Of a stretch of 64,000 nt of DNA, positions 20,521-64,000 are shown piece by piece (within the stretch, counting starts at the first letter, position 1; every line of letters starts with the position of its first letter). Source of the DNA: Candidatus Woesebacteria bacterium (GTDB taxonomy: Bacteria; Patescibacteriota; Microgenomatia; UBA12405); contig DAOTMI010000001.1 in assembly GCA_035450165.1 (NCBI GenBank), positions 45,888-109,887 of the forward strand. The letters run 5' to 3'. Below the pieces are notes generated by a model. The model did not search any database and was not told the origin of the DNA. It worked only from the letters and a program-made list of their open reading frames with translations. The position numbers and the translations under genes were made by a program.

Positions 20521-21066
20521 TTAAAATATACCTCTGACGGTGTCGAGGTCGCCGAGAGTTTGGTCTTTGTCGGAGACGATGTAGTCCATTTTGGGCCAAG
20601 TAATGGCAAGTTTTGGATCGTTGTAGATAATGCCGGATTCGGAAGTCTGATTGTAAAAATTGTCACACTTGTATTGAAAATCAGCAGTGTCGGAAAGGGC
20701 GACAAAACCATGGGCAAAACCCTGGGGAATAAAAAGCATTTGGTGATTTTCAGCGGATAATTCAAACATTTCAAATTGACCGAAAGTAGGGGAATTCTGA
20801 CGAATATCAACAGCGACATCAAGGACATTGCCGGCGGTGCAGCGAACTAATTTGGCTTGGGCAAAAGGCGGTTTTTGAAAGTGTAAACCACGAAGAACAC
20901 CTTTAACCGAATGGGAGTAATTGTCTTGGACAAATTTAGTGTCAATCCCGTTGGCGGCAAAAACTTTTTCATTGTAGGTTTCAAGAAAAAACCCACGGTC
21001 GTCACTGAAAACATCGGGAATCACCTTTATCAAATCGGGAATTTTATTAGAACGAATAAATTGCAT
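20521..21066 (-). CDS. rmlC: dTDP-4-dehydrorhamnose 3,5-epimerase
   Basis: The cupin fold reads DDRGFFLETYNE...VLRGLHFQ...KLVRCTAGNVLDVAVDIR (RmlC His-Asp catalytic dyad context). The start is set at the internal Met (MQFIRSN...). The track ORF is extended 22 aa into rmlB. Confidence 0.85.
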   Translation of the reverse strand: MQFIRSNKIPDLIKVIPDVFSDDRGFFLETYNEKVFAANGIDTKFVQDNYSHSVKGVLRGLHFQKPPFAQAKLVRCTAGNVLDVAVDIRQNSPTFGQFEMFELSAENHQMLFIPQGFAHGFVALSDTADFQYKCDNFYNQTSESGIIYNDPKLAITWPKMDYIVSDKDQTLGDLDTVRGIF

Positions 21067-21070
21067 AAAA

Positions 21071-22770: not shown

Positions 22771-24195
22771 CTAAGGGATAGGTGTTGGAGAAATTGTCAC
22801 CCGCGGGGTAGGAGTTGCTTCTGGGGCAGCTTTAGCCGTCGGAGTAGCTGTCGATTGAGGAGTTACTATCGCTCCTGTTTTTAAATCAACCCCTATAAGA
22901 AAAACAGCATCGTAAGATGAGGTTGCTGGTAACTCTTCAAATTCAGCCTGAAAATCGGGTAATTTAGCTTTAAAATAAGAGGAAGCAGTGGCGATTTTTT
23001 CCTTAAGTCTAATAATATTGCCCTTGACATTTTCCTTACTGTTGCCGATAGCTACCGAAGTAAAACCCAATTTAGTTAACATCTCTTTTACCGCCGCCGC
23101 TTGACCGTTGATATCGGTGGCATTTAAAACCTGGATTTTAATATCTTTAGCTATTTCTGTTACTGATGGTGTCGGTGTCGTTGTTAGCTCTACTTCTTCT
23201 CTCTGTTCTTTAACTGCTGTTGGTCCTACTGGTGAACTTACCTCTGGAGTTCGATTACGGTTGAGAATAAACCAAATAACAATCGAGGCAATTGCCGCTG
23301 TTACAATAAAAACGGCGATAATAGGAAGATAATTTTTTCGATTTTCCATAGCTGGTCTAATTATAACACGGGGTAGAGAACCAAATAAACCCAGAACTGG
23401 TAAGGGAATATTGCCGGCTTTCCTCCATTCCCGAGCAATTTGAACTTCATCATAAGGAGTTTTGTCTAAAACCGAAGTAGCATTAAGTTCCAGTTCAAAC
23501 TGGCTTGGCACGAAAATTTTAGAAATAGGATGGGAAAAATATAAGCCAGCATAATTAATAATTTTTTGGATATCTAAACTTGTCCCTTTTAATCCGGCGG
23601 TTAAATAAACTTTCTCCTTGTCTGCCAAAAAGAGGGTATATTCATTTTTAGCTATAGGGTAAATTAAAAAATATTCGCCAGCAAAAAATCCAGAGATTAC
23701 TCGAGAAACAGCTGTAGAAACCGTTTCAAATGATAAGGGATTGAAGGCTAATTGAGTCAAATTAGCTTTAAGAACTTCCATTTTGATCTTGTTACCAATA
23801 GAAGCTCGAATAAGAGTCTTATCTGTTCCTGGAAATAATTCATAATTAAGATATTGAGGATCAATTTTAAAAGGAATAAAACTTTCGGCTAGACTAATGA
23901 CTTCTTTCTTCTCGATGGTTTTAATAACCGAATCGTAAATAAACGATTTGGTAATAATCACATCATCATCAACTAAAACCACTCCTTCTTTTAAACCCTG
24001 CTGGTTAACAAAAGCAGTTAAGGGAGCTAAATCTTCAACCGAGTGGGGCTCAAATAGATTTAAATCCCAGTTAAAAACATTATTTTCCTTCCGGTCGAAA
24101 TAAAGATTAACGCTTTTTCTCTTGACCCAAAGAACCACTTTAGGCTTAGCAAATAATGACATCTCTCTTATAGTATGATGAAAAAATCCTACCAA
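22771..24195 (-). CDS. membrane-anchored protein with a C-terminal LytR_C (LytR/CpsA/Psr C-terminal) domain
   Basis: 474 aa. A cytoplasmic N-domain of about 280 aa, a single TM (IIAVFIVTAAIASIVIWFIL), a Pro/Thr/Glu-rich linker, then IKIQVLNATDINGQAAAVKEMLTKLGFTSVAIGNSKE... typical of LytR_C. Its 3' end overlaps the rpsG start by 7 nt, so it is co-transcribed with the str operon. Confidence 0.55.
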   Translation of the reverse strand: MVGFFHHTIREMSLFAKPKVVLWVKRKSVNLYFDRKENNVFNWDLNLFEPHSVEDLAPLTAFVNQQGLKEGVVLVDDDVIITKSFIYDSVIKTIEKKEVISLAESFIPFKIDPQYLNYELFPGTDKTLIRASIGNKIKMEVLKANLTQLAFNPLSFETVSTAVSRVISGFFAGEYFLIYPIAKNEYTLFLADKEKVYLTAGLKGTSLDIQKIINYAGLYFSHPISKIFVPSQFELELNATSVLDKTPYDEVQIAREWRKAGNIPLPVLGLFGSLPRVIIRPAMENRKNYLPIIAVFIVTAAIASIVIWFILNRNRTPEVSSPVGPTAVKEQREEVELTTTPTPSVTEIAKDIKIQVLNATDINGQAAAVKEMLTKLGFTSVAIGNSKENVKGNIIRLKEKIATASSYFKAKLPDFQAEFEELPATSSYDAVFLIGVDLKTGAIVTPQSTATPTAKAAPEATPTPRVTISPTPIP

Positions 24196-35315: not shown

Positions 35316-36035
35316 TCATTCGACGATTCTCGCCCTAACTACCAGCCGGCGAAGATAAGTCCCCGGCGGTGAACAAGTAACTAAGGAAAGATAACGACCA
35401 TCATAGCGCTGTTCTAAAATAGAAAAGTCGGTAGCTTTCACTTCAAAAACATCTTCTACTAGATAAGTATAGTGGACTCGGTCAAAATAAACGATGATCT
35501 GATCGCCTGGAATTAATTTAAATAAAGTTGAAAACACTGTCAAATAAGATTTGGGATTGAAAAACTGCGGTAAAACCGAATGGCCAAAAATAACTGCATT
35601 ACCTCTTTGACCTGGTAGAGCTGTTTGGGGATAATGGATAATGCTTTTCTTTAAATCCTTACCACCGATAGTTACTTCGACATCTTTTATCCCTAATTTA
35701 GGAATAGATAAAAGATAACTTCGATGATCAGTTTCGCTTAAAAGCTCCTGTGAATAGGCCGCTGTTTGACCATTGTTTTGAACAAACCAATTGGAAAGCT
35801 GAGTAAAATCAACTGCTTCAGCCATAATACCTTCTTCATTGTTATAAAATTTGACGGAAAGTGGACTTAAAATAGGTTGGAAGCGACGGCTGTAACCCCA
35901 CTGAAAATACGTTAACGGGTAAAGAACGAAAAGAAAAGATAAAATACCAATGACTAAAAAAATAAAAGACAAATAATTTTTAGCCGCTGGTTTAGATTTT
36001 TTGGCAGGTTTTTTTTTCAAATAAACGTAAGCCAT
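35316..36035 (-). CDS. sortase (transpeptidase)
   Basis: 239 aa. N-terminal TM anchor. The catalytic triad context reads FGHSV (His), LSLVTCSP (TLxTC Cys) and a downstream Arg (RRLVVRAR). Confidence 0.8.
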   Translation of the reverse strand: MAYVYLKKKPAKKSKPAAKNYLSFIFLVIGILSFLFVLYPLTYFQWGYSRRFQPILSPLSVKFYNNEEGIMAEAVDFTQLSNWFVQNNGQTAAYSQELLSETDHRSYLLSIPKLGIKDVEVTIGGKDLKKSIIHYPQTALPGQRGNAVIFGHSVLPQFFNPKSYLTVFSTLFKLIPGDQIIVYFDRVHYTYLVEDVFEVKATDFSILEQRYDGRYLSLVTCSPPGTYLRRLVVRARIVE

Positions 36036-38152
36036 TAATTTATTCTAGAAACAAGATTAATCCGACTCTTAATAATTGGCAAAGGAAACACCTTACCAAT
36101 CATTGGTAAATTAGACCGAATTTTCCAACTATAAAAATAATCGCAATTATTTTTAAAATAGTTTAGGGCGGAACTCCAGGTTCGACCAACAATTTTTGAT
36201 TTTATGCTCTCTAGATCTAATTTAGGGGCAACTGAACCGGTAATAGTTAACTGACCAATCGCTCTCTGTTCATCGCTTTTTTCTTCCGTAAATTTCAATT
36301 GGTAAACCATCTGCTGGTAGTCAGCTTGATCATCTTTGGTTTCAATTAAAGAATAAATAATTTCATCCTTTTTGGCCGAAGGAATAACAAAAACAGTCAT
36401 TGTTAATTCCTGAACTGCCGATAATTCATCAATTACTTCACCAACATTGCGATTAAATTCAATTTTCTTGGATTGAGTTCTAACAGTCTCTGGCAAGGCC
36501 CCGGCCAAATTATTAATATCTTTTTCAATTTTTTCTTTAATAGTTGTTTCGACTGCTCTCTTTAGGCGCGATTCTAGTTCTATCTTATCTTGACGGTCAA
36601 CAACTTGGACTTCCTGCCGACTACCACCGGTAAAATCTGCTTCGGTTCTGGCTATTAAAACACTCTCGGGATAATCTTTAAAAACCAATTTTGCTCCCTG
36701 GGAAAGATTAAACTCCGGCCCAATATCGACCGCCCCAACCACTGTTTTAGTCTGACCCAGTTTAAGTACTGCCGGCTCTTGATTAAAATCTAAATTGCCG
36801 CCGGCAACTTGAACCGGAGTTAATAACTCAAACTGTTTATTGTCAGCAGTCATCAAAATTGTTCCAACTGGCAAATTTAGCACTTTTTCCTCCTTATTAA
36901 AAATAACAACACTCCCCTTGGCTTTTTCCCCAACAGTTTTTTTACCGGTTGTAGGAACCTTGTCGCTAACTTTGAGATTAAAAGATTGAATTACTGCCGG
37001 AATTACCCTCGATCCGGGACTGAAAGTGGCTGTTTGGGAATCTAAAGTAACTGGTATAGTTGTTTCCAAAGGCAGGGGTTTTAATAAAAGGACAATTTCT
37101 ACCCGATTTAACAACCATAAGCCAAGGAATAATAGAGGGATAAAAGATAAAAACCAAAGAAAAGCATTTAGTTTTAATTTTAATCTCAATTTAATTTTGG
37201 GTAATTTGGGCCTTATTTTAGGTTTTAAGTCTAGTTGAGCCATCGGCACTTCGACTGGAGGGGAGGTTGTCTCGGGAACTACTGCCGTCGGTGGTTCTAC
37301 TTCGGCCGGCGGTTCCATTGATAAGGCTGTTTCAGACTCGACTGGCGGCAATGATTCGACTGCTGCTGGTTCAACTTCAGCTGGAGAGACTGCCTCTTCT
37401 GTCGGTCCTAAAGATCCCGACTCTACCGGACCAATAATCTGTTTATTAATAAAACTAGCCCAAATTCGGGTAATTTCCTCCAAACTTAAAAACTTTAAAT
37501 CGGGTAAATGAAAGAAAATATCACCAATCTTTTTACCTATCCAAGGGTAATTCTTGATATCATCTATCGGCAGATTGGGAGTATCACCAAAAAAAATCAA
37601 TAGAGGTGGTAGGGTCGATTGGGACGAGAGATTAGCTAAAACATTTTCAATCGCTTTGGGAGAAAAACCGTCGCTAAAAGTTTCATGAAATCGTTCTTTT
37701 ACTTTGCCAAAATAAACCAAAGAAAGATTAAATTGACGTCGGCCTAGATTAATTAAAATAAAACTATTACTAAATGACTCGTCATTTTCAACTGATTCGA
37801 CTAGGGCTTCATCATTACCGATAAAACCCAACGGTTTAAATTTAAGTTTCTTACAAATCTCTTCGATTAGTTTAAATTTGGCTGCCGTAATTTGACCATC
37901 GATATCAATCCAAAAAGGAGAAAGAATAAAAGCGGCTAACTCCGGCTCAGCTGCTTCCTCAATAGCCGCCATTTGGGCTGTTTCACTTAAGGAGGCATCT
38001 ACCGCCAAAATCAGCGACTCTTCTGAATCTGGCTCATATATCTTTGGTTTACCGGTAACAATACGTTCAAATTGATTTCCGGCAAACAAAACCAAAGAAA
38101 CATTAACCTCTTCCTCATCGATAGCAATCAGCCAATAGTTATTAGTTGCCAT
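36035..38152 (-). CDS. large membrane protein. It has a cytoplasmic N-domain, a Pro/Glu-rich linker, one TM and an extracytoplasmic beta-rich domain. It is co-operonic with the sortase.
   Basis: 705 aa. No signal peptide. The repeat-like linker reads AEVEPAAVESLPPVESETALSMEPPAEVEPPTAVVPETTSPPVEVP. A TM follows at about aa 320-345 (AFLWFLSFIPLLFLGLWLL). Its stop overlaps the sortase start by 1 nt. Confidence 0.5.
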   Translation of the reverse strand: MATNNYWLIAIDEEEVNVSLVLFAGNQFERIVTGKPKIYEPDSEESLILAVDASLSETAQMAAIEEAAEPELAAFILSPFWIDIDGQITAAKFKLIEEICKKLKFKPLGFIGNDEALVESVENDESFSNSFILINLGRRQFNLSLVYFGKVKERFHETFSDGFSPKAIENVLANLSSQSTLPPLLIFFGDTPNLPIDDIKNYPWIGKKIGDIFFHLPDLKFLSLEEITRIWASFINKQIIGPVESGSLGPTEEAVSPAEVEPAAVESLPPVESETALSMEPPAEVEPPTAVVPETTSPPVEVPMAQLDLKPKIRPKLPKIKLRLKLKLNAFLWFLSFIPLLFLGLWLLNRVEIVLLLKPLPLETTIPVTLDSQTATFSPGSRVIPAVIQSFNLKVSDKVPTTGKKTVGEKAKGSVVIFNKEEKVLNLPVGTILMTADNKQFELLTPVQVAGGNLDFNQEPAVLKLGQTKTVVGAVDIGPEFNLSQGAKLVFKDYPESVLIARTEADFTGGSRQEVQVVDRQDKIELESRLKRAVETTIKEKIEKDINNLAGALPETVRTQSKKIEFNRNVGEVIDELSAVQELTMTVFVIPSAKKDEIIYSLIETKDDQADYQQMVYQLKFTEEKSDEQRAIGQLTITGSVAPKLDLESIKSKIVGRTWSSALNYFKNNCDYFYSWKIRSNLPMIGKVFPLPIIKSRINLVSRIN

Positions 38153-52815: not shown

Positions 52816-53621
52816 ACAGTTGAAACGGAACTTGGCTGGAGGTTCCCAAATAAATCGCCTTTAGACTCAATTTTTTCTAAGGGAGTTACATTATCGAAAG
52901 GATTCAACTCACCCGCCGACGGATTTTCCACTTGAGTCGCCCGTAAGCAGGCAGCCCCAGCTTCAAAGGTTTCCGGAGAAACATTTACTGAAAAAGATTG
53001 GGTGGCTACCCGTAGACCAATTAACAGGTTTTTGGCCGCTTCAAATTTGAAGGGCAGAGCTAGCATCGGAATTAAAAACGCCATAATTTCAGCAAAAGGA
53101 GCATCGGGATCAATAATACTCGCCTGCGCCCATGATTTTTCCATTGGCATAGAACTAATTAAAACCCATTGGCCACGATTAACAATATCAGCCGCCTTAC
53201 CCAACTTGGTTTCATCACCCAGCATAAAATTAATATCCGCCAAAGATGATTGATTATTAATTATAATCTGATCACGCTCAATTTTAGGGGAGTTAGCTTT
53301 AGTTTTGACAACTAAATTCAGCCGGCCGCCATCCTCGTTATAAGCCACTGTTTCAATGCTTTCCTGAGGATAATCTAAGGTAATCACTAAACCGTTGGCA
53401 CTATAAACATTACTTAACAACTCCAAACCACTTAATTTGGAATAATTAGCATCAGGTTTTTGAGGACAAAAAACCTGAACAGACAAGCCAGTATCTTTTA
53501 ACGATAACGCCAAAGCTAGGGCAGAACTAACACTGTCCAAACTCAATTCCGGCACGGCGATAAAAGCACTTTTGGCACCGTCAAGTAAAACCTTAATTGA
53601 TGAAATATTATAAGTTTTCAT
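52812..53621 (-). CDS. hypothetical protein, possibly a degenerate DHH-phosphoesterase (NrnA-like) fold lacking the catalytic DHH motifs
   Basis: 269 aa. The N-terminal pattern AFIAVPELSLDSVSSALALALSLKDTGLSVQVF parallels the NrnA hxHxxPDGDAxGSxxAL...G..V region, but with Asp/His replaced. The assignment is weak. Confidence 0.35.
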   Translation of the reverse strand: MKTYNISSIKVLLDGAKSAFIAVPELSLDSVSSALALALSLKDTGLSVQVFCPQKPDANYSKLSGLELLSNVYSANGLVITLDYPQESIETVAYNEDGGRLNLVVKTKANSPKIERDQIIINNQSSLADINFMLGDETKLGKAADIVNRGQWVLISSMPMEKSWAQASIIDPDAPFAEIMAFLIPMLALPFKFEAAKNLLIGLRVATQSFSVNVSPETFEAGAACLRATQVENPSAGELNPFDNVTPLEKIESKGDLFGNLQPSSVSTV

Positions 53622-55003
53622 CGAGTGAACGCTAGTATACCATCTTTTACTTTGAAATCAACATAAGGTTTAAAAGTTAAACCGCATTCGTTACCGGCCT
53701 TAACTTTATCTACGGCTATTTTTCCCTGTCGAAGACTATCTATTTTGGTGTCTTTAGTAATACCGTCGGCTCTTTTAACATGAACCAAATCACCTTTAGT
53801 TAGCTCACCTTTAGTTACTTTCACCCCGGCGATCCGAGTCTTTTCAATTTTAAATTCAGCAATAATTTCACCTTCTCCCAAAACTGTCTCGTCAATCGTT
53901 GGTTCAAGCAAATGAAGAATTTTATTTTGGATATCGTCAATAATTTCATAAATAATCTTTGACTGAATCACTTTTACTTGCTCATTTTCGGCTAATTTTT
54001 GGATAAATAAGGGAAAATCAACATTGAAAGCATAAATAGCGGCCTTACCGGCACCAGCCAAAAAAACATCATTATCGTTTACGGCACCGACTCCGGCTTC
54101 CAAAATCAAGACGTCGTCAGTTAAACAGTTTCTAATTGCCTCTAGGGTTCCCTGAGTGTCAGCCTTAAGAATAATTTTTAATTTATTGGAAGCGGTAGAA
54201 TCAGCAGTCAATTTGGCCGCAGGGACAGTCGCAACCTGTTGGGGTTGTTTGGTAATTACCGAACCTACCGGCGGCACTGCTTCACAGCCCAGAATCACTA
54301 CTGGTGTTGATGGCCCTGCCGAATCAATCTTTTTCCCGTTATCATCAATTAAAGCTCGAACTTTGCCGCTAATAGAACCGGCATAAATAATATCGCCTGT
54401 CTTGACTGTTCCTTTCTCAACCACCGCTGTGGCTATCGGCCCTCGATTTTTATCCAAACAGGATTCAATCACGGCCGCCAATAAAGGAGCTTCTGGTTCT
54501 GCCTTAAGATCAAGTAAATCAGCCAGTAATTTAATAGTTTCCAGTAATTTATCGATACCCTCACCGGTTTTGGCAGAAATAGCCAGACAGGGAACATCAC
54601 CACCATATTCCTCGGGAGTAAAACCGGCTTCAATCAATTGACCTTTAACTTTATCAGGGGCAAAACCGGCCAAATCTTTCTTATTAAGAGCGACTATCAA
54701 GGGCAATTTAAATTCTTTAACCAACTTCAGGCACTCTTTGGTTTGAGCCATCACTCCCTCAGTACCGGCAATAACCAAAACAACTATATCGGTAATTTTC
54801 GCTCCTCTTGCCCGCATATTGATAAAAGCGGCATGGCCGGGAGTATCAATAAAGGTAATTCCCTTGGCTTGGTAAGCATTGATATGCTGAGTAATACCGC
54901 CAGTTTCCTTAGCACAAACATTGGTCGATCTGATCTTATCCAGCAAAGTAGTTTTGCCGTGGTCGATATGACCCATAATAGTAACAATTGGTGGACGAAA
55001 CAT
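53618..55003 (-). CDS. infB: translation initiation factor IF-2, short form (G domain plus C-terminal domains only)
   Basis: 461 aa. It starts at the G domain ([30 protein letters not shown]) with beta-barrel domains after. Confidence 0.9.
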
Positions 55004-56244: not shown

Positions 56245-57540
56245 TTACTTACACTTAAATCGATACACCCGCCAACTGACTTTCTCAAAACACTTAGAGT
56301 CGTTAACAAAAGGCAGATCGGGCTGACGATCAGAATGGTAAAGATACAAAGGCTGGGGCAAAGTCCGTAATAAATTGATTTCATCCTCCAAACTACCGAA
56401 CCAAAATCGCTGCCATTCGGCTTCGGTCCAATAATTATCAGCCGGATTAAGACCGGTGGTAATCACCTGCTTAACCGTACTATAGCCCATTAGCCACGGG
56501 GCATTCATTTCATCAGTGGCCAGCAAATAACCGTCTAAATTAATTGTCTGAATTTCCCGGAATTCATCATGATTAATCTGTGGATAAGCCGTCCTTTTGA
56601 CAAAAAAGGCCAAATAAATCAAATTAAGAATTACAAAAATAATTAAAAACAATCTATTTTTAATCTTAGACAGAGCCAAAGCGGCAAACAGCAATAAAAA
56701 AATGTCTAAATAAATTATCAGCCGGCGGTAAAAAAACATCCTCAAAATAGTCGTTAATAATAGCCCAAAGATAGGCAAAATTAAAAATGGTATTTTTCGA
56801 TAATTTTTCAAAAAAGTCAACAAACCCAATGGTAAATAAAGAATACTTAAAACCAACCAAGCCGCCGGCTCATAAAAAGTTCCCGAAGCTTCGCCAAAAC
56901 TAGTTAAAATTGACTTGACCAGCGGCTGATAACTGGACAGGCGAGGTAGACAAAATAAACAGGTTAAAACCAGAGTCAACAAATAGTAGGGCCGGTGATT
57001 TTTGGCAAATAACAAACCGGAAAATAAGGCGGCATACAAAATAAAGTCGGTTGGTGAATGGAAATAAACAGTCAAAACCCCCCAAAAGATGGCCCAATAA
57101 GATTTTGATAATAAACAATAAAAAGTTAGAAATAAAAAGGCTAAAGCGGCAATATTTTTCAGATAATACCAGTAAAAAACCCGGTATTGTACCAAAGAAC
57201 TGGCTAGTAAAAATATAGCCCAAAATGCGGCTTTTTTACCCCATAAACGATTGGCCAGTAAAAAAACAGCCCAAAATAATAAAGCGGAAAAAAACAAGAC
57301 TAAGGGAATAAGAAGATAGGTTGGATTGAACGGAATTAAATGAACCAAAGCAAATAATCCCGGAGGATACATCGATTTCAACCAATCATTTGGGAATGGA
57401 AAATTTTTAAAACCATATAAATATAAACCTGGATCGTAACCCAAAGGAACATTATTATCCAGATACGGATAAAGCCGCCAGCCGATGAAAACCAAAAAAC
57501 AGGCAATAATAATCAGCCAATCTGTCAATTTTAATTTCAT
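56245..57540 (-). CDS. polytopic integral membrane protein (about 12 TM), possibly a GT-C-type glycosyltransferase
   Basis: 431 aa, almost entirely hydrophobic helices, aromatic-rich, with no soluble domain. Confidence 0.45.
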   Translation of the reverse strand: MKLKLTDWLIIIACFLVFIGWRLYPYLDNNVPLGYDPGLYLYGFKNFPFPNDWLKSMYPPGLFALVHLIPFNPTYLLIPLVLFFSALLFWAVFLLANRLWGKKAAFWAIFLLASSLVQYRVFYWYYLKNIAALAFLFLTFYCLLSKSYWAIFWGVLTVYFHSPTDFILYAALFSGLLFAKNHRPYYLLTLVLTCLFCLPRLSSYQPLVKSILTSFGEASGTFYEPAAWLVLSILYLPLGLLTFLKNYRKIPFLILPIFGLLLTTILRMFFYRRLIIYLDIFLLLFAALALSKIKNRLFLIIFVILNLIYLAFFVKRTAYPQINHDEFREIQTINLDGYLLATDEMNAPWLMGYSTVKQVITTGLNPADNYWTEAEWQRFWFGSLEDEINLLRTLPQPLYLYHSDRQPDLPFVNDSKCFEKVSWRVYRFKCK

Positions 57541-57599: not shown

Positions 57600-58532
57600 T
57601 TAATTAAAGAAAAAATCAAAACTTTCGTTAGGGTTAAAAAACTCGTCTTCCGCCGGCTGGGGTTGAGCCCCCAAATAAACATTGATTTGGGCGGAATCAG
57701 TCGCTAACGGCGTGCGGTTGACAATCAAATATTCCCCTTTCAAAACATCCTCCACCAAATCAGCCTGATCAGATTCAGCCTCCCGAAATTCAATCAAGGC
57801 ATTTTCAATCTTTTTTTCGCTATCTTTAGCTTCGATTTCTTTATAGCCAACGGTTTTAAAAAGATTGCCGACGCGTTTGGCTTCACCGGCTTCGGTGCCA
57901 GCATTGTAAACCATAATTTTGACACTGGGATCGGCAAGAGGAAGCGGTTTTTCGGTAATTTCGGGGGTAACTATAGGAATAACTTCAGCTACTTTTTCGA
58001 CAACTTTCGGCTGGGGCCGATTGCTAATAAAAAAACCGGTTAAAAGAACAAAAACGACGACAAAGCTAGCGGGAATTTGAATTTTACTGGCAATAAATCT
58101 TTTGATATTTAGGGTGGTTTGCTGGATGGGCGGCAAATTTTCTATTTCTTCTTCAGTGGCAACTTCATCGGGAAAGATCAAGATAATCGCCCCCATGAAA
58201 GTGATCAAAAGTCCGGACAAAATGCTGATAGCCAAATGCAAAATTTTGTTGTCCAATTGGACTTTCCATAAAATGATTAAGGCGCCGATTATGCCTAAGG
58301 CAACGGTAAAAATGTAATCAAATGGAGTTGGTTTTTTTGTTTCTATCGGTTCTTCATCTTGCGGTAAAAGCGCGGTAATTATCCCTAAAATCAGAACCCC
58401 ACCCAAAACCCAGTTTAGGGAAAAGACATCGGAAACAAATCCGGGAAATAAAGTTTCCAATAAAAATAGGATTAGATAAAAAATCAAGGAATAACTGAAA
58501 AGCTCTTTAATAATCAGGGCAATCGTTTTCAT
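57600..58532 (-). CDS. multi-TM membrane protein with a C-terminal LytR_C domain
   Basis: 310 aa. About 5 TMs, a Pro/Glu linker, then IMVYNAGTEAGEAKRVGNLFKTVGYKEIEAKDS...VYLGA (LytR_C-like). Confidence 0.5.
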   Translation of the reverse strand: MKTIALIIKELFSYSLIFYLILFLLETLFPGFVSDVFSLNWVLGGVLILGIITALLPQDEEPIETKKPTPFDYIFTVALGIIGALIILWKVQLDNKILHLAISILSGLLITFMGAIILIFPDEVATEEEIENLPPIQQTTLNIKRFIASKIQIPASFVVVFVLLTGFFISNRPQPKVVEKVAEVIPIVTPEITEKPLPLADPSVKIMVYNAGTEAGEAKRVGNLFKTVGYKEIEAKDSEKKIENALIEFREAESDQADLVEDVLKGEYLIVNRTPLATDSAQINVYLGAQPQPAEDEFFNPNESFDFFFN

Positions 58533-58535
58533 AAA

Positions 58536-60329
58536 CTAAGGTGCCGTCGCGCCAATCTTGATGATGATAGTCTCGTCTTGAGAATTGATTGAGCGGCTGG
58601 TCAATTTATATTCAGTCTTAACGATATCTTCAATGGCTTTTAAATCATTTTGATATTTCTCCGGATAGCTGATAGCGGCATTTTTAAACTTGTCAGTTGC
58701 ATTTTCCGCCTTAGCATTGGCATAACCGGCAGTTTGCAATTTAGCCGCCAACCGAGTGCCAGTGCCGCTGGGGGCGCCGCCGTTAAGAATTTTAATCGGC
58801 ATAGTCTTACTGGAAATAGCTGTCGGCGTGGCCACCTTGACCTGGGTTAAAGTGGGAACGGCGGTCGGGATTTCTGTTGGTTTTTTGACAAATTTCTCCA
58901 AAGCGCCCTGATAGTCAATATTAACCTCAAAACCGCCGATTTCCAATTCACCACCGTAGTCAGCCAACTTGGGGCTTTCAAGAGAAAAATAAAGTTTGTC
59001 GCCGGTAATATCCAGATCCTTCGGGTCAAAACTAATCTCACTTACCAGCCATTCTCCTTCCTGCCGGGCCGGGGTTAAAACAGTCAGAAGATAATCGATT
59101 TTATCCAGATTATCAATCGTATTAAGATCAGTGTATTTAACCAGGTCGGGATTAAAAAACTGATCCTTGGAAAAGGCAAAATAGCCGTCGCCGGAATAAA
59201 TAACATCATTTTTATCGGAAGAAAGTTTAAAAAGATCCTTGCCGTTAAATTTAGTTTTGGTTAAGGCCTCCAAATCAGTGGTTACTTTAGTACCGGCTTG
59301 AAGGACGGTAATCTCAAATTTATCATTGACTTTAATTGGGGCTAAATACTCTTTATGGGCAATTTGGGTAGTTAAATTCAGGGTATCAGTATAAACGATG
59401 CTAGGTTTGTCATCTAAGATAAAAAGCGATTTAGCGATAATTTTTTCCTGATTAACTTCCAGTCTGGTAATCACCGAATCACTACTCTTACCGTCATAAA
59501 TCAGGTCAAGCCGATAAATACCCGGGGCAATATCGTTAATTTCCAATTTTTCAGTTTGGGCTTCCTTTTTCAGTAAGGTTTTGGTTGTCATGCCATCGTC
59601 AGGAATAACTGCTTCAGCCATTTTTTTATTATTGCTCCCATAAACAGCCAGATTTAATTTGTCCTCACCTTCGTACATATTAATATCCTGTTTGCTGACT
59701 TTAACTACCAAAGGCGCCGTCTCTACCCAAACATAAAAAGTATGAGAACCGCGGAGAAAAGTGTTAATCACTGCGTTGGGACGGCCTTGTGAGGATGTAT
59801 TTTTAACCAAAGTTTCCTGATTAACAAAATAGCCCCCAATTTTATCTTTCGCCGGCGGGTTATCAATCAAATCGGCAATGGAATGGTAATGTTTCACCCG
59901 CTGATACAGAATATTACTGATACCCTTGATCTTTTCCCAGCCGGCCGCCTCCTGAACCAGTGAGTGATAAAAAGACTGATATAAATATTTATCTTTTTCA
60001 TTACCTCTAACCCCCAATTTAATTTCTCTCGGCCCGGGTTTAAACTTAATTACGGCCCGAATATTGTCAACATTAGGGGCTTTTAAGTCGACCGGAAACC
60101 GGGCCGCTTGGGTGGTAATCACCTGACTGGGAAGTTTAAAACCGCCGGTAGGACTGGTGGTATCGATATTAGCTACCTCTTTAGCTCCGGGAATTTTTAG
60201 AGTGGTGCTGACTTTCTTTCCCAACGGTGCCCAATATTTCCAGCCTAAAAATCCGATCAAACCCAAAAAAACAATACCTCCACCAATAATCGAAATTAGC
60301 TTGATTTGTTTGGGTTTAAGTTTTTTCAT
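58536..60329 (-). CDS. single-TM surface protein with a large beta-rich ectodomain and a C-terminal LytR_C domain
   Basis: 597 aa. N-terminal TM (LISIIGGGIVFLGLIGFLGW), a 450-aa extracytoplasmic region, a PT linker (PTEIPTAVPTLTQVKVATPT), then IKILNGGAPSGTGTRLAAKLQTAGYANAK... (LytR_C). Confidence 0.5.
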   Translation of the reverse strand: MKKLKPKQIKLISIIGGGIVFLGLIGFLGWKYWAPLGKKVSTTLKIPGAKEVANIDTTSPTGGFKLPSQVITTQAARFPVDLKAPNVDNIRAVIKFKPGPREIKLGVRGNEKDKYLYQSFYHSLVQEAAGWEKIKGISNILYQRVKHYHSIADLIDNPPAKDKIGGYFVNQETLVKNTSSQGRPNAVINTFLRGSHTFYVWVETAPLVVKVSKQDINMYEGEDKLNLAVYGSNNKKMAEAVIPDDGMTTKTLLKKEAQTEKLEINDIAPGIYRLDLIYDGKSSDSVITRLEVNQEKIIAKSLFILDDKPSIVYTDTLNLTTQIAHKEYLAPIKVNDKFEITVLQAGTKVTTDLEALTKTKFNGKDLFKLSSDKNDVIYSGDGYFAFSKDQFFNPDLVKYTDLNTIDNLDKIDYLLTVLTPARQEGEWLVSEISFDPKDLDITGDKLYFSLESPKLADYGGELEIGGFEVNIDYQGALEKFVKKPTEIPTAVPTLTQVKVATPTAISSKTMPIKILNGGAPSGTGTRLAAKLQTAGYANAKAENATDKFKNAAISYPEKYQNDLKAIEDIVKTEYKLTSRSINSQDETIIIKIGATAP

Positions 60330-60397
60330 TGGTAATTGATTATAATACAGATTAGAGTTCTTGAAACATGTGGTAATTTTTATATTTATTCTCTTTT

Positions 60398-61951
60398 TTA
60401 TTTAGTTTCAATTTTTAATAAATTATCAGTGATTTTTTTATATTTTAGCCCATAATCATTCATCTGAATATTATACAAAATTGATTCAGAATCTTTTTCC
60501 TTCATTATGTATACTGGTATGTTGTCTTTAAGAAGCTCATTTATCAGTGTAATTGATGTTTGTGTCCTCGTCGTTTCTGGTATTGAGACATATATTGCTG
60601 TTTGACGAACTGGATATATATATTTATCATACATATTTGTAAAAATAATTGCATTATTCTCCGTTTTTTTTAATATTTGAGTTTGAAAAGTGTTTGTCCA
60701 CTTAGAGGTATCTAAAAAATATTTTATTGACATATCACTCAAAAATGCTTGATAAATATTAGTCACCAATAATATGAATATTGATATATAAAAAATAATT
60801 TTGGTCTTTAGTATATTGTGAAGATAATAAACTCCAATAACAACTATAATAATCCAACTAATCAATAAGTATCTAGAAAAACTTGTACCGACACTCCCTA
60901 CAAATCCTGATCCGGACCAATTTTTACCCACAAAAAATAAACACTGTAAAATTACGATATAAAATAAATATTTTAAAATAATATCAACACTTTTATTTAA
61001 TTTTTTCAAAAATATTTTTAATATTGAAATAATTGAAAGACTAACTAATATTGGATTTACAAAAAACACTTGATTAATAATATTTGTAATAAAATTTTTT
61101 ATATTTATTTTAAAAATAAACGACAGAATTCCATTACTACTTGAGGATAATTGATAGTGATTAAGATTGTATATTGGATTATTAAAATTAAGAAAACCAT
61201 TATATGTTTTGGTTTGAAAAAAATATAAAAGAATAAAAAGAAAACTAAAAGGTATTGATGCAATTATAATATTTTTTATCTTTATCTTTTTTAAACAACC
61301 TTTTTGGGGATCCCAAAGTAATAATAATATAAAAGGTAAATAGAATAAAACTGATGGATAATTGAACCACATGGATATTCCCGCAAATAAGCCAAATAAA
61401 AAATATGGTATTTTCTTGTCTTTATAAATTGCCTCTAAAAGAAAGAACAATCCTATTATAAAAAAGGTGGTTGATGGTAAATCTTTAAATGGAGTATTGC
61501 TAACATACAAAAAGGGACCTGATAGATAAATAATGACTATACACAAAGTGGAAATTATATGATCGCTAAATACGTATTTATTAATTATTTTATGTACGTA
61601 TATAAGACATAGAACTGAAAAAAGAGGGTTTAGTAAAAATAATAATTTAGGTGATACTAATTTAAACAACGCAACTAGAAAAATCATCCCTGGTAGTGAT
61701 GAAGGAACAAAACCATCTTTAAAAAAGAGTAATCCTCGGATACCGAAAATCGGAGGTGAATATTTTAAATTTAAGTTATTGATGTATTTATATGATTTAT
61801 TACTAATTAAAAGATTGGAAAATAGGTCATTTTGATTTGTATCAGTGTTGGGAAAATTGTTTTTTTGAATAGAATAATTTACTAAAATACTAATGATAAA
61901 AATTAACAATAGTGTTAGGTTCAAAATTATATTTTTTTTCATTGATTGCAT
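60398..61951 (-). CDS. polytopic membrane protein, GT-C-like (ArnT/PMT-type) glycosyltransferase candidate. Very AT-rich.
   Basis: 517 aa with at least 12 TM helices. Lys/Ile/Asn/Phe-rich codon usage distinct from the rest of the window. Confidence 0.45.
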   Translation of the reverse strand: MQSMKKNIILNLTLLLIFIISILVNYSIQKNNFPNTDTNQNDLFSNLLISNKSYKYINNLNLKYSPPIFGIRGLLFFKDGFVPSSLPGMIFLVALFKLVSPKLLFLLNPLFSVLCLIYVHKIINKYVFSDHIISTLCIVIIYLSGPFLYVSNTPFKDLPSTTFFIIGLFFLLEAIYKDKKIPYFLFGLFAGISMWFNYPSVLFYLPFILLLLWDPQKGCLKKIKIKNIIIASIPFSFLFILLYFFQTKTYNGFLNFNNPIYNLNHYQLSSSSNGILSFIFKINIKNFITNIINQVFFVNPILVSLSIISILKIFLKKLNKSVDIILKYLFYIVILQCLFFVGKNWSGSGFVGSVGTSFSRYLLISWIIIVVIGVYYLHNILKTKIIFYISIFILLVTNIYQAFLSDMSIKYFLDTSKWTNTFQTQILKKTENNAIIFTNMYDKYIYPVRQTAIYVSIPETTRTQTSITLINELLKDNIPVYIMKEKDSESILYNIQMNDYGLKYKKITDNLLKIETK

Positions 61952-61977
61952 GATTAGTCTAAATTATTATCGTTTAT

Positions 61978-62958
61978 CTAAAATTTATCAATAATTTTTA
62001 ATGCTAATCCTCTGTAAATTCCTAATATAAAACTAAAACCTAAAATAATTAATAATTTAGATATTATAAAAAAATCTGATATTGAATTAGAAAAAAATAT
62101 AGAAATATTTACAAAAAATATGATAAGTAAAAGTAAATAGTATGGTATAAGAAAAATATAATTTAAAAAAATAAAAATGGTTATTAAAATTGTTAATGAT
62201 GGCAAAAAAATGAATATCCAAAAATTTTTTTTCTTAATATTTAAATAATAATCAGTGAATTTTATTCCCCTATTGTAAGTATGGATAATTTCATCTTTCA
62301 AGGATGATCTGACCTCAGACTTGACGATAACTCCTGGATGTTTAAGTATATTTCTTTTTTGAACTATGGTAAATAATAATTTTGTGTCATCGGAGGAATT
62401 TTTAGATTGATTTTGGGGTTGTGATGACAGAAATAAGTCTTTATCACAAAAAAATACACCTGTTCCTTTACTTATTTTGTCAAAATTATCTTTTGTAATA
62501 TATGTTGGTATAAATTTATTGCCAAATGAATTAGGATATAGTTTTAACTTTATTAAATATTTAAACCGATGAATATCGCTTTGTGTATGATCAATAATTG
62601 CATTTCCAACTAAAGGTTGATAATTAATTTTTTTTAAATTTATTAATATTGATTTATCTGCGATTGTTCGAGAATCAATAAATAATAGATTATTATATTT
62701 TGATTTTTTTGCCCCAATATTCCTTGCTTTTGATCTTCCCTCATTTGTTTTTAGATTTACTATTTTAATCTTTAAATTTTTCTTTCTAGCAATAATTATT
62801 TTTTCCCTTATTGATTTTAGTGTACGATCTGTCGATCCATCATTTACAACTATTATTTCATAATCATCTTTAGGATATATTAAATTAGTCAATGCGCTTA
62901 GAGATTTTTTAATATAATATTCTTCGTTGTATACCGGAATAATAATAGATATTTTCAT
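61978..62958 (-). CDS. family 2 glycosyltransferase with a C-terminal membrane anchor
   Basis: 326 aa. MKISIIIPVYNEEYYIKKSL...EIIVVNDGSTDRT (GT-A DxD context), then 2-3 C-terminal TMs. Confidence 0.75.
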   Translation of the reverse strand: MKISIIIPVYNEEYYIKKSLSALTNLIYPKDDYEIIVVNDGSTDRTLKSIREKIIIARKKNLKIKIVNLKTNEGRSKARNIGAKKSKYNNLLFIDSRTIADKSILINLKKINYQPLVGNAIIDHTQSDIHRFKYLIKLKLYPNSFGNKFIPTYITKDNFDKISKGTGVFFCDKDLFLSSQPQNQSKNSSDDTKLLFTIVQKRNILKHPGVIVKSEVRSSLKDEIIHTYNRGIKFTDYYLNIKKKNFWIFIFLPSLTILITIFIFLNYIFLIPYYLLLLIIFFVNISIFFSNSISDFFIISKLLIILGFSFILGIYRGLALKIIDKF

Positions 62959-62959
62959 A

Positions 62960-64000
62960 CTAATTCTTTTTTTGATAATATCTATATTTTGTATAAAACA
63001 ATAAGGTTGTTAAATACTGTAACAAATTTGCTCTTGGTAAAGCATGGTTAAATATTGGAATTTTATATCCACAGATTTTTAAGATTAATAATCTTGGATG
63101 TAAATTTATTTTTTTAAAAATTGATTGTTTTTTTAACATTTTTATTTTTGTGTCATCAAATTTAGTTAAAATCAATTTTTTAATCCCTTGAATAATTTCT
63201 AAAGCTTTTTGGTTTCTTACTATTACTACTGATGATTGCGATTCCCAATCGTCACCAAAAGATATATCGCAAAAATCATTGAGTCTATCTGGACACATAA
63301 GACAACGTACAGGAATATTGAATTTAAAGTCAGTGTTCCAATACTCTTTATATTTTAGTTTGTATTTAGATTTGTCCTTTAAATAAATTAACATATTATA
63401 TTTTTCTCTGTATTTAATTTTTTGGACTTTTTCGAGGTTGATATTTAATTTATTGAGTAATTTCTCTGTGGCTTTAAAGGATGGACATCTTGAACAAAAA
63501 AGACCTAATGATATATATATTTTTTCCTTTAATTGTGGATATAGTTTTTCCATATTTTTGAGGCCATGAATATGACAAGGAAGGCCTACAAAAGCATATT
63601 TGTGTTTTTTTTTTGATTTCAATATATCTTTAAGCATAATGTTCTGAGGAGTAGGGCAATATTTTGACCCTATAGCGTTGATTAGTTCTTTTTTGGTTGT
63701 TGCAATTATTGGCTTGGAAACTAAACCGTTCATTATAGTAACTATCGCACCATCAATTTTTTTTTCCTTCATAAGAGAAATCAATATTTGAGTTAATGCT
63801 CCTCCTGAACTACTCATCTCTCTAATTTTTTTAACACAAGATTGTCCGTTGTAAATTTTTGTGTAATTTCCTAATAATTTTTGGTTTATTGGAGTCTTCC
63901 ATCCTGGACATACCTTGATGCAAAGGTTGCAATTTGTACATAATTCTTTGTTAACATATGGTTTATATATTCCTGTTTGTTTATCTATAACAAGAGATAT
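62960..64000 (-). CDS. FrhB/FdhB-like Fe-S flavoprotein (coenzyme F420 hydrogenase beta-subunit family, polysaccharide-modification type). Partial; the N-terminus lies beyond the window end.
   Basis: The track ORF (to 63817) continues upstream in frame with no stop through YVNKELCTNCNLCIKVCPGW (a 4Fe-4S ferredoxin CxxCxxCxxxCP motif) to the window edge. The C-terminal region has CLMCPDRLNDFCDISFGDDWE, typical of the FrhB_FdhB_C domain. Confidence 0.6.
   Translation of the reverse strand: MSLVIDKQTGIYKPYVNKELCTNCNLCIKVCPGWKTPINQKLLGNYTKIYNGQSCVKKIREMSSSGGALTQILISLMKEKKIDGAIVTIMNGLVSKPIIATTKKELINAIGSKYCPTPQNIMLKDILKSKKKHKYAFVGLPCHIHGLKNMEKLYPQLKEKIYISLGLFCSRCPSFKATEKLLNKLNINLEKVQKIKYREKYNMLIYLKDKSKYKLKYKEYWNTDFKFNIPVRCLMCPDRLNDFCDISFGDDWESQSSVVIVRNQKALEIIQGIKKLILTKFDDTKIKMLKKQSIFKKINLHPRLLILKICGYKIPIFNHALPRANLLQYLTTLLFYTKYRYYQKKN

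What the first reader, a model, noticed from the sequence alone, without database searches (positions are those of the whole stretch)
60340..64000. Compositionally distinct, extremely AT-rich glycan-biosynthesis cassette at the window end
Downstream of about 60340 the base composition drops sharply from about 40% GC to about 20-25% GC. The three genes there have markedly different codon usage. They are a GT-C-like polytopic membrane protein, a GT2 glycosyltransferase with a membrane anchor, and a ferredoxin/FrhB-FdhB-like Fe-S protein of the kind that partners polysaccharide pyruvyl-transferases. This is the signature of horizontally acquired or fast-evolving surface-polysaccharide or protein-glycosylation genes. 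The cassette sits next to two LytR_C surface proteins.
Basis: seen in the sequence. Interest (0 to 1): 0.55.

Follow-up and report, generated by a model that had tools for sequence, protein, structure and literature searches.

The report
Imported AT-rich surface-sugar gene cassette
The last 3.7 kb of the window is the near end of a five-gene, very AT-rich surface-glycan cassette that a Woesebacteria (CPR) bacterium apparently took from a far more AT-rich relative; this is a clean but ordinary case of surface-sugar genes being swapped between lineages.

Summary
GC falls from 38.9% (window 1-60339) to 24.0% (60340-64000), with the change point at about 60284-60397. No other 3.7-kb stretch of the window goes below 34.0%. 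The three gene calls are correct: a GT-C fold enzyme, a membrane-anchored GT2, and a 2x[4Fe-4S]/FrhB-like protein that the window end cuts short. On the source contig (a Candidatus Woesebacteria MAG) the AT-rich block is 6.1 kb and holds five genes: UDP-GlcNAc 2-epimerase, pyruvyl transferase, FrhB-like protein, GT2 and GT-C. It lies inside a 13-kb co-directional glycan locus between dnaKJ and nusA-infB. The rest of that locus (polyprenyl-phosphate-sugar synthase GT2, short dehydrogenase, Wzx flippase) has host composition. The block also uses different synonymous codons: A-ending at 0.47 of four-fold sites, against 0.10-0.15 in the host. The closest relative of its pyruvyl transferase/FrhB pair (70-73% identity) lies on a 24.8% GC contig with the same codon preference. 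There is no integrase, tRNA or flanking repeat. Related loci carry other modification modules and show smaller GC steps. Best reading: replacement of the variable part of a resident glycan locus by horizontal transfer. New member of a known kind; modest interest.

The parts
60330..60397 (.). 68-nt spacer that holds the downstream (window-side) compositional boundary of the block
   Evidence: The GC change point is at window 60284 +/- a few tens of nt, and 200-nt GC falls from 0.455 to 0.21 across this spacer. The scan reported no terminator-like site in this spacer (L001 12562-12629). No repeat marks it.
60398..61951 (-). GT-C fold glycosyltransferase, 517 aa, last gene of the AT-rich block (GC 23.5%)
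61978..62958 (-). Membrane-anchored GT2 (GT-A) glycosyltransferase 'GT2b', 326 aa (GC 22.0%, GC3 14%)
   Evidence: Pfam Glycos_transf_2 at E=2.2e-21. C-terminal hydrophobic segments lie at 247-265 and 296-314. Invariant D44, D95, D190/D191 and R230-G231. Only the first ~100 residues align to solved GT2s or to the ArnC/DPMS-like GT2a. It lies next to the GT-C gene in 16 distinct related loci.
62960..64000 (-). 2x[4Fe-4S] ferredoxin + FrhB/FdhB-like flavo-iron-sulfur protein, 372 aa in full; the window holds residues 27-372 (GC 27.4%)
   Evidence: Pfam FrhB_FdhB_C at E=6e-32, FrhB_FdhB_N at 9e-17 and Fer4 families on the full protein. The frame is open to base 64000. The full sequence carries CTGCGSCVAVCP and CTNCNLCIKVCP. 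The best solved relative is 8RJA_E at E=1.2e-26, followed by the N-terminal half of F420-dependent sulfite reductase and FrhB. A paper citing 8RJA reports F420 reduction coupled to CO2 generation in ethane-oxidising archaea.
58536..60329 (-). Flanking host-composition gene: 597-aa single-pass surface protein with a C-terminal LytR_C domain
   Evidence: Pfam LytR_C at E=4e-5. One N-terminal TM segment. GC 41.4%. A 35%-identical homologue follows the GT2b/GT-C/LPG_synthase_TM block in L017.
57600..58532 (-). Flanking host-composition gene: 310-aa membrane protein with a LytR_C domain
   Evidence: Pfam LytR_C at E=3.6e-8. Five hydrophobic segments. 36% identity over 102 aa to a 238-aa protein at the end of the Pacebacteria glycan locus L009.
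56245..57540 (-). Flanking host-composition gene: 431-aa polytopic membrane protein, possibly a second GT-C-type enzyme
   Evidence: No Pfam hit of its own. Seven or more hydrophobic segments. 29% identity over 447 aa to L009 511-aa; that protein and its L039 homologue give sub-threshold PMT_2 hits at E~1e-4. No profile similarity to the 517-aa GT-C family.

Best explanation
The AT-rich stretch is the window-side 3.6 kb of a 6.1-kb, five-gene block: UDP-GlcNAc 2-epimerase, polysaccharide pyruvyl transferase, Fer4/FrhB-like protein, membrane-anchored GT2 and GT-C transferase. The genes are tightly packed or overlapping. The block forms the distal part of a ~13-kb co-directional cell-envelope glycan locus in a Candidatus Woesebacteria (Microgenomates, CPR) chromosome, between dnaK-dnaJ and nusA-infB. 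Shown: the block is compositionally and codon-wise foreign to its host, is delimited at gene boundaries, and carries no mobility genes. Inferred: it entered by horizontal transfer from a much more AT-rich relative (about 25% GC). The likely route is homologous replacement of the variable 'modification and transfer' part of a locus that related lineages share, as happens with O-antigen and capsule serotype cassettes. Inferred function: the epimerase supplies UDP-ManNAc. GT2b adds a sugar to a polyprenyl-linked intermediate on the cytoplasmic face. The pyruvyl transferase, with its obligate FrhB-like partner, adds a pyruvate-derived acidic group at the lipid-linked stage, as CsaB does. The resident Wzx flips the product. 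The GT-C enzyme then transfers sugar outside the membrane from a polyprenyl-phosphate sugar made by the resident ArnC/DPMS-like GT2a. The acceptor would be a wall glycan or a surface protein, and the adjacent LytR_C proteins are candidates. The net effect is a new, negatively charged surface epitope.
For: Composition: z = -3.9 to -5.6 for gene GC, with all three codon positions and amino-acid usage shifted. All five genes have a larger RSCU distance than any host gene. Four-fold sites read A3/T3/G3/C3 = 0.47/0.33/0.08/0.13 in the block. They read 0.15/0.37/0.19/0.28 in the flanks and 0.10/0.47/0.17/0.26 in the adjacent Wzx/GT2a/dehydrogenase genes on the same strand. The switch occurs exactly at the Wzx/epimerase junction and at the GT-C/LytR_C spacer. 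Donor-like pool: the closest pyruvyl transferase (70% identity) and FrhB-like protein (73%) sit together on contig L120. That contig is 24.8% GC throughout and has the same four-fold signature, 0.47/0.36/0.07/0.10. Cassette behaviour: L013 keeps the same frame (secreted 210-aa protein, short dehydrogenase, GT2a, Wzx, a 20-nt Wzx/epimerase overlap, GT2b, GT-C). It carries a 491-aa double methyltransferase where this genome has pyruvyl transferase + FrhB, and it shows a GC step at the same junction (36.6% to ~30%). L017 has the block at 27-31% GC between a 40.5% sugar aminotransferase gene and a 39.4% homologue of the 597-aa LytR_C protein. Not an artefact: see the observation check. Function: family assignments come. 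GT2a aligns full-length to ArnC, DPMS and GtrB. The closest NCBIfam model for the pyruvyl transferase is CsaB (E=1e-25, below cut-off). For CsaB systems, the abstracts returned by the literature search state that pyruvate ketal on beta-D-ManNAc of secondary cell wall polymers is the cell-wall ligand epitope (PMC6030368, PMC10435577).
Against: No donor is identified. The block's GT-C and GT2b sit on long isolated branches (39-47% and 37-56% identity to all relatives), and the 70-73% relative is a 3.4-kb contig of unknown organism. No presence/absence polymorphism could be shown, because every contig of this species is the same clone. Related lineages show a GC step at the same junction. Long-term maintenance of low GC at this locus, or transfers older than this lineage, are therefore not excluded. 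The glycan chemistry is wholly inferred. No initiating phosphoglycosyl transferase or polymerase lies in the locus, the GT2b subfamily is unresolved, the acceptor is unknown, and no role is known for the FrhB-like protein.
Confidence: 0.72

Rival explanations
1. The block is an old resident. This part of the glycan locus is kept, or drifts, far more AT-rich than the rest of the genome because of relaxed or diversifying selection on surface-glycan genes under AT-biased mutation. No recent transfer is involved.
For: Homologous loci in other lineages (L013, L017, L022, L030, L034, L027) also have GT2b/GT-C genes 3-12 GC points below their flanks. The Wzx/epimerase junction with its 20-nt overlap is conserved between L001 and L013. 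Divergence between L001 and L013 is similar for host-composition genes (36-56% identity) and block genes (44-62%). The block proteins are long branches, as expected for fast evolution.
Against: Silent sites switch from a T-ending preference (A/(A+T) = 0.16-0.33 in the flanks) to an A-ending preference (0.51-0.66 in all five genes) on the same strand, within a few codons of the gene boundaries. Drift under the host's own mutation spectrum should enrich T, not A. The same signature is found on the foreign contig L120, including in genes unrelated to the block. None of the other host genes, several of them poorly conserved, has GC3 below 0.24, whereas the block has 0.14-0.22.
Confidence: 0.17
2. 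The block is cargo of an integrated mobile element or prophage remnant, like the phage-borne gtr serotype-conversion cassettes of Shigella and Salmonella.
For: Low GC relative to the host, and a GT2 plus GT-C gene content that resembles gtrB/gtrC logic.
Against: The 21-kb locus holds no integrase, transposase or phage gene. It has no tRNA. Its only repeats are low-complexity A/T matches with none marking the two boundaries. The boundaries coincide with gene starts and ends inside an operon-like array, and one gene overlaps its host-composition neighbour by 20 nt.
Confidence: 0.04
3. Functional alternative, compatible with HGT: the GT-C enzyme is a protein O-glycosyltransferase of the PMT kind. 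It would decorate the Pro/Thr-rich linkers of the neighbouring LytR_C surface proteins rather than a wall polysaccharide.
Confidence: 0.2
4. The GC step is a chimeric assembly or binning error that joins DNA from two organisms.
For: Abrupt composition changes in MAGs can arise this way.
Against: Both junctions are spanned by contigs from independent assemblies in NCBI, ENA, JGI and Logan at 99.96-99.99% identity. The upstream junction is a 20-nt overlap of two genes in one operon-like array.
Confidence: 0.01

Closest known systems
Low-GC variable regions of Wzx-dependent O-antigen and capsule loci in Enterobacteria, Klebsiella, Acinetobacter and streptococci
   Same: There is a conserved frame with a flippase and a variable central set of glycosyltransferases and modifying enzymes (pyruvyl, acetyl or methyl transferases). 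The Klebsiella survey describes this layout, counts 35 pyruvyltransferases, and even one 'coenzyme F420 hydrogenase' gene in cps loci (PMC4616057). Variable modules are swapped between lineages: pyruvyl transferase + FrhB here, against a methyltransferase in L013. That such regions are usually lower in GC than the genome is established knowledge from my own background, not something tested here.
   Different: The host is a CPR bacterium with a small genome. No Wzy polymerase, chain-length regulator or initiating transferase lies in the locus. The terminal enzyme is a GT-C that works outside the membrane. The GC gap (about 15-16 points) and the A-ending codon switch are unusually stark.
Three-component extracytoplasmic glycosylation systems: GtrB/GtrA/GtrC, ArnC/ArnEF/ArnT, CsbB/GtcA/YfhO, and Haloferax AglD/AglR/AglS (own knowledge)
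   Same: A GT2 that aligns full-length with ArnC, DPMS and GtrB (GT2a; best NCBIfam hit AglJ). A flippase (Wzx type, as AglR is). A GT-C fold transferase. Related loci carry an LPG_synthase_TM protein in the flippase-like position.
   Different: GT2a has host composition and lies outside the imported block. The GT2 that always accompanies the GT-C (GT2b) is not of the ArnC/DPMS/GtrB type. No GtrA-like small flippase is present. There is no prophage context.
CsaB / MnaA pyruvyl-ManNAc pathway of Gram-positive secondary cell wall polymers, the ligand of SLH domains
   Same: A UDP-GlcNAc 2-epimerase gene overlaps a PS_pyruv_trans gene. CsaB is the best NCBIfam model for the transferase. The host has Gram-positive-style envelope genes, including a sortase in the window.
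   Different: The score is far below the CsaB equivalog cut-off (90.6 against 213 bits). No TagA-type GT26 and no SLH-domain protein was seen in the 73 kb examined. CsaB systems are not described with an FrhB-like partner.
Fer4 + FrhB modules of archaeal F420-dependent enzymes (FrhB, FpoF, the N-terminal half of Fsr, 8RJA_E)
   Same: The same two-domain FrhB fold signature plus an N-terminal 2x[4Fe-4S] ferredoxin domain. The nearest named homologues outside CPR are from Methanobacterium, Bathyarchaeia and Baldrarchaeia.
   Different: Here, and in M. lacus, the gene sits between a Wzx flippase and a pyruvyl transferase in a glycan locus, not with hydrogenase or dehydrogenase subunits. Scores are below every NCBIfam equivalog cut-off. 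Whether the host has F420 at all is unknown.

Membership tests
GT-C glycosyltransferase superfamily (Pfam PMT_2) | Match to a GT-C family profile above the curated threshold | tested here: met
   PMT_2 at 33 bits against a cut-off of 26.1, E=8.8e-8.
GT-C glycosyltransferase superfamily (Pfam PMT_2) | Polytopic membrane core with the GT-C fold | tested here: met
GT-C glycosyltransferase superfamily (Pfam PMT_2) | Conserved acidic residue(s) in the first extracytoplasmic loop | tested here: met
   D37 is invariant and D42 near-invariant in the segment that directly follows TM1, across 13 family members. Placement in the loop is inferred from topology.
GT-C glycosyltransferase superfamily (Pfam PMT_2) | Uses a polyprenyl-phosphate-linked sugar donor outside the membrane | not testable with these tools
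   Needs biochemistry.
GT2 polyprenyl-phosphate sugar synthases (ArnC / DPMS / GtrB type) | Full-length similarity covering the catalytic domain, interface helices and C-terminal TM pair | tested here: not met
   For the window gene GT2b, only residues 1-~107 align to any solved GT2, and only residues 1-101 align to the GT2a profile. GT2a, outside the window, does meet the criterion: it aligns over 7-304 to ArnC and 4-303 to GtrB.
GT2 (GT-A fold) glycosyltransferases | Pfam Glycos_transf_2 above threshold, with conserved Asp motifs | tested here: met
   76.9 bits against a cut-off of 23.3. D44, D95 and D190/D191 are invariant in 14 sequences.
FrhB/FdhB family with N-terminal ferredoxin domain | FrhB_FdhB_N and FrhB_FdhB_C domains plus two CxxCxxCxxxCP motifs | tested here: met
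   61.5 and 110.9 bits, against cut-offs of 22 and 23.3. Both motifs are read.
FrhB/FdhB family with N-terminal ferredoxin domain | F420 as substrate, i.e. equivalog to FrhB or FpoF | tested here: not met
   NCBIfam frhB scores 99 bits against a cut-off of 331.5, and FpoF scores 83.6 against 475. Cofactor use itself is not testable here.
Polysaccharide pyruvyl transferases (PF04230) | Profile match above threshold (gene lies just beyond the window end) | tested here: met
   143.9 bits against a cut-off of 25.3.
CsaB (SCWP pyruvyl-ManNAc transferase) equivalog | Score above the TIGR03609 cut-off | tested here: not met
   90.6 bits against a cut-off of 213.1. WcaK models are also below their cut-offs.
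Horizontally acquired genomic island | Composition and codon usage deviate from the host and change at sharp boundaries | tested here: met
Horizontally acquired genomic island | Mobility hallmarks: integrase or transposase, tRNA target, flanking direct repeats | tested here: not met
   None found.
Horizontally acquired genomic island | Presence/absence or allelic replacement among close relatives | tested here: inconclusive
   All contigs of this species are clonal. The more distant L013 has a different modification module in the same frame. The GT-C and GT2b families were not found in 185,579 GTDB species representatives.
Wzx/Wzy-dependent polysaccharide locus | Wzx flippase present | tested here: met
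   Polysacc_synt at 127 bits; MOP flippase models hit.
Wzx/Wzy-dependent polysaccharide locus | Wzy polymerase and initiating phosphoglycosyl transferase in the locus | tested here: not met
   No such Pfam or NCBIfam hit among the locus proteins. The 431-aa polytopic protein remains unassigned.

The most novel reading that the evidence does not exclude
The conserved trio of Wzx flippase, Fer4/FrhB-like flavo-iron-sulfur protein and PS_pyruv_trans is found here in a CPR bacterium and also in Methanobacterium lacus. It may mark an uncharacterised redox-dependent sugar modification rather than plain ketal pyruvylation. One possibility is ferredoxin-driven reduction of an enolpyruvyl ether to a lactyl (carboxyethyl) ether on a lipid-linked sugar, a MurB-like step carried out by an FrhB-family reductase. 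On this reading the imported cassette would be a self-contained module that installs this acidic group, which the GT-C enzyme then displays on the cell surface. The chemistry is my own hypothesis. It is prompted by the fact that ketal formation needs no redox partner and that FrhB relatives include ferredoxin-dependent reductases of vinyl and hydroxymethyl groups (own knowledge).
Probability: 0.12. Interest if true: 0.6.

Novelty: new member of a known kind. Interest (0 to 1): 0.33.

Why it matters
The locus gives a well-delimited example of surface-glycan cassette exchange in a Candidate Phyla Radiation bacterium, a group whose envelope glycans are almost unstudied. The exchange happened in the middle of the most conserved part of the chromosome. 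The foreign origin can be read not only from GC but from a switch in silent-site preference from T-ending to A-ending codons. The analysis also defines a small GT2/GT-C gene pair that was seen only in metagenome contigs and MAGs and not in GTDB species representatives. It further documents that the unexplained FrhB-like partner of pyruvyl transferases is conserved from methanogens to CPR bacteria. That pairing is a tractable biochemical question. None of this overturns current understanding.

Tried and rejected
1. Mobile-element hallmarks. The repeat search across the block and its borders gave only low-complexity A/T matches. No tRNA was found in the locus or the window, and there is no integrase among the called genes.

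2. Rfam scan of the whole window. No family reached its gathering score.

3. Promoter and terminator scan. Promoter-like hits are inflated by AT richness, and no terminator lies at the block borders, so the scan was uninformative.

4. Genome-collection scans for named relatives. The GT-C profile found nothing. The GT2b profile returned only generic GT2 N-terminal matches; the best near-full-length hits had 26-30% identity in Pontiellaceae, Planctomycetota and Desulfobacula. No organism-level synteny comparison was therefore possible.

5. Donor search by phylogeny. NJ trees put the window's GT-C and GT2b on isolated long branches, so no donor clade could be named.

6. Mosaic epimerase hypothesis (a crossover inside the gene). 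The GC change point falls about 500 nt into the epimerase. However, the silent-site dialect is already foreign in codons 1-165, and sliding-window identities to L013 and L011 differ only weakly. I rejected this as unproven; the boundary is placed at the epimerase start.

7. Population variation. All contigs of the species differ from the source contig at only nine distinct positions in total, one to four per contig, so nothing could be learnt.

8. Whether the 431-aa neighbour belongs to the 517-aa GT-C family. hhalign gave a probability of 0.2%.

9. Sequence search of the PDB with the GT-C and the pyruvyl transferase gave no significant hits.

10. Literature on FrhB-like partners of pyruvyl transferases. 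Only a gene count in Klebsiella cps loci was found.

Full report
OBSERVATION. The compositional drop is real and sharp. One-kb GC values are 0.31-0.44 across window 1-60000 and then 0.30, 0.225, 0.220 and 0.273. At 200-nt resolution GC falls from 0.455 to 0.21 between 60100 and 60500. A two-segment likelihood break lies at window 60284 (LR statistic 225), essentially the 68-nt spacer 60330-60397. Window 60340-64000 is 24.0% GC against 38.9% for the rest, and no other 3661-nt stretch falls below 34.0%. The other genes tabulated average 39.6 +/- 3.1% GC (minimum 31.6%). The three window genes have 23.5, 22.0 and 27.4%, giving z = -3.9 to -5.6. GC1, GC2 and GC3 are all shifted, and F+Y+M+I+N+K makes up 44-49% of residues against 30.5%. 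The baseline genes are core genes: ribosomal proteins, SecY, adenylate kinase, EF-Tu, EF-G, AlaRS, FtsK, NusA and IF-2.

Gene 61978-62958 (-) encodes a 326-aa GT2 with C-terminal membrane segments.

Gene 62960-64000 (-) is the FrhB-like gene. Its frame is open to the last base of the window. The full protein is 372 aa and has two CxxCxxCxxxCP motifs followed by the FrhB_FdhB_N and _C domains.

The two genes downstream encode LytR_C-domain membrane or surface proteins, for which Pfam reported no catalytic domain.

BEYOND THE WINDOW. An exact-sequence look-up placed the window on NCBI contig CAZBAE010000001.1 (184 kb, GCA_964490225.1). Further contigs from ENA, JGI and Logan assemblies are 99.96-99.99% identical, and several of them span one or both junctions. 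This rules out a chimeric assembly. A 100%-identical GT-C entry is named Candidatus Woesebacteria, which belongs to the Microgenomates group of Patescibacteria.

In the direction of transcription the locus reads as follows:
- dnaK and dnaJ.
- A divergently transcribed secreted 206-aa protein.
- GT2a, 311 aa.
- A 239-aa short NDP-sugar-dehydrogenase-like protein.
- A Wzx flippase, 411 aa.
- UDP-GlcNAc 2-epimerase, 366 aa.
- PS_pyruv_trans, 443 aa.
- The Fer4/FrhB-like protein, 372 aa.
- GT2b, 326 aa.
- GT-C, 517 aa.
- The 597-aa LytR_C protein, the 310-aa LytR_C protein and a 431-aa polytopic protein.
- nusA and infB.

Only the five genes from the epimerase to the GT-C are AT-rich (22.0-27.4% GC). 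GT2a, the dehydrogenase-like gene and Wzx have 35-37% GC.

FOREIGN ORIGIN. The difference is not just in GC. At four-fold degenerate sites the flanks read A/T/G/C = 0.15/0.37/0.19/0.28, and the adjacent GT2a, dehydrogenase-like and Wzx genes read 0.10/0.47/0.17/0.26. The block reads 0.47/0.33/0.08/0.13. All of these genes are on the same strand, so replication-strand effects are controlled.

The switch is abrupt. A/(A+T) is 0.16 in the last 200 codons of Wzx and 0.51 in the first 165 codons of the epimerase. It is 0.55-0.66 in the pyruvyl transferase, FrhB-like, GT2b and GT-C genes (0.51 in the second half of the epimerase), and 0.33 in the first 200 codons of the 597-aa gene. The RSCU distance of each of the five genes exceeds that of every host gene. 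Drift under the host's own T-favouring silent-site regime would not produce an A-ending dialect.

The closest relatives of the pyruvyl transferase (70%) and the FrhB-like protein (73%) lie together on contig L120. That contig is 24.8% GC over all four of its genes and has the same silent-site signature, 0.47/0.36/0.07/0.10. No integrase, tRNA or boundary repeat is present.

CASSETTE BEHAVIOUR IN RELATIVES. A metagenome scan with the GT-C profile gave 24 loci, which were annotated.
- GT2b and GT-C are neighbours in 16 distinct loci. They usually occur with an epimerase, a GT2a-like gene and methyltransferases, and often with an LPG_synthase_TM protein.
- L013 keeps the frame of this genome, including the 20-nt Wzx/epimerase overlap. 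It carries a double methyltransferase in place of pyruvyl transferase + FrhB, and its GC steps from 36.6-47.6% to about 30% at the same junction.
- L017 has the block at 27-31% GC between a 40.5% aminotransferase gene and a 39.4% homologue of the 597-aa protein.
- Several other loci show steps of 3-10 points, and two show none.

The locus is therefore a conserved frame with an exchangeable, AT-leaning variable part, and this genome is the most extreme case. This pattern is also the main argument for the rival reading of a long-maintained low-GC locus, which I keep at about 0.17.

The GT-C family is small: 486 representatives at E<=1e-3 among 1.84 billion. Neither it nor GT2b was found in the GTDB species representatives. 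The window's copies sit on isolated long branches, so no donor can be named.

FUNCTION (inferred). GT2a aligns over its full length with ArnC, DPMS and GtrB, and its best NCBIfam hit is AglJ. It is therefore a polyprenyl-phosphate sugar synthase and the natural donor-maker for a GT-C enzyme. GT2b shares only the N-terminal ~100 residues with such enzymes, so its subfamily is unresolved. Its invariant D44, D95, D190/D191 and R230-G231 are compatible with an inverting GT2 that acts on a lipid-linked acceptor.

The epimerase is wecB-like (198.9 bits against a cut-off of 210) and overlaps the pyruvyl transferase gene. The nearest NCBIfam model for that transferase is CsaB, below cut-off. In CsaB systems, pyruvate ketal on beta-D-ManNAc of secondary cell wall polymers is the wall-anchoring epitope (PMC6030368 and PMC10435577, as listed).

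My working model has five steps. UDP-ManNAc is made. A lipid-linked unit is built and given a pyruvate-derived acidic group on the cytoplasmic face. Wzx flips it. The GT-C enzyme adds sugar outside the membrane from a polyprenyl-phosphate donor. The product changes the surface epitope. The acceptor is unknown. Homologues of the LytR_C and 431-aa neighbours recur next to related blocks in L017, L009 and L039, which makes a functional link plausible but unproven.

THE FrhB-LIKE PARTNER. The pyruvyl transferase/FrhB pair was adjacent in every context examined: L001, L009, L011, L120, L121, L123 and Methanobacterium lacus L122. In M. lacus the FrhB-like gene lies between Wzx and the transferase. 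Named homologues outside CPR are archaeal. The best solved relative is 8RJA_E, and a paper citing that entry reports F420 reduction coupled to CO2 generation in ethane-oxidising archaea. I found no paper that explains its role in glycan loci. This is the one open question attached to the finding.

VERDICT. The feature is a horizontally exchanged surface-glycan cassette, which is a known kind of thing, here in a CPR genome with an unusually clean compositional and codon signature. I rate it a new member of a known kind, interest about 0.33.

Noticed in passing
window 17333-18475 (+): A 380-aa flavin amine-oxidase / NAD_binding_8 protein. It is the lowest-GC gene outside the block (31.6%, FYMINK 46%) and lies on the opposite strand, directly beside rmlD (18622-19500), rmlC (20521-21132) and rmlB (21071-22072). 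It may mark a second, smaller foreign or glycan-related patch.
   Followed up: partly
window 22771-24195 (-): A third LytR_C-domain protein (474 aa) next to the rml genes. LytR_C-only proteins therefore recur beside sugar genes in this genome.
   Followed up: no
window 35316-38152 (-): A sortase gene (35316-36035) lies directly downstream of a 705-aa protein with no Pfam match (36035-38152), which is a possible sortase substrate. This is consistent with a Gram-positive-type envelope.
   Followed up: no
L001 4503-5222 (beyond the window end): A 239-aa protein starts with a GxGxxG motif. It matches only the middle of NDP-sugar dehydrogenases (TIGR03026 positions 96-265 of 413) and lacks the C-terminal domain. 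It is conserved at 48% identity in L013 and partly in L011, so it looks like a maintained short form rather than a fresh pseudogene.
   Followed up: partly
L122 6568-10527 (Methanobacterium lacus): In a cultured methanogen, a Wzx flippase, a Fer4/FrhB-like protein and a pyruvyl transferase lie together inside a glycan locus. The unexplained pair therefore spans archaea and CPR bacteria.
   Followed up: partly
L011 10838-11761, L009 8664-9605, L017 3388-4311 and others: In many related loci an LPG_synthase_TM (MprF flippase-domain family) protein directly follows the GT-C gene. It may serve as the lipid-linked-sugar flippase of the system. It is absent from this genome's locus.
   Followed up: no
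window 1-64000: No tRNA gene and no Rfam family at gathering score were found in 64 kb, even though the region is dense in ribosomal-protein and translation-factor operons.
   Followed up: no
window 53618-55003 (-): IF-2 is only 461 aa and starts directly with the GTPase domain, so the long N-terminal region of typical bacterial IF-2 is missing.
   Followed up: no
L121 351-2183 and L123 1-1830: In two other contigs the pyruvyl transferase/FrhB pair (30-32% GC) sits beside a 610-aa PMT_2 protein of 42% GC. This is another mosaic of compositions around the same pair.
   Followed up: no
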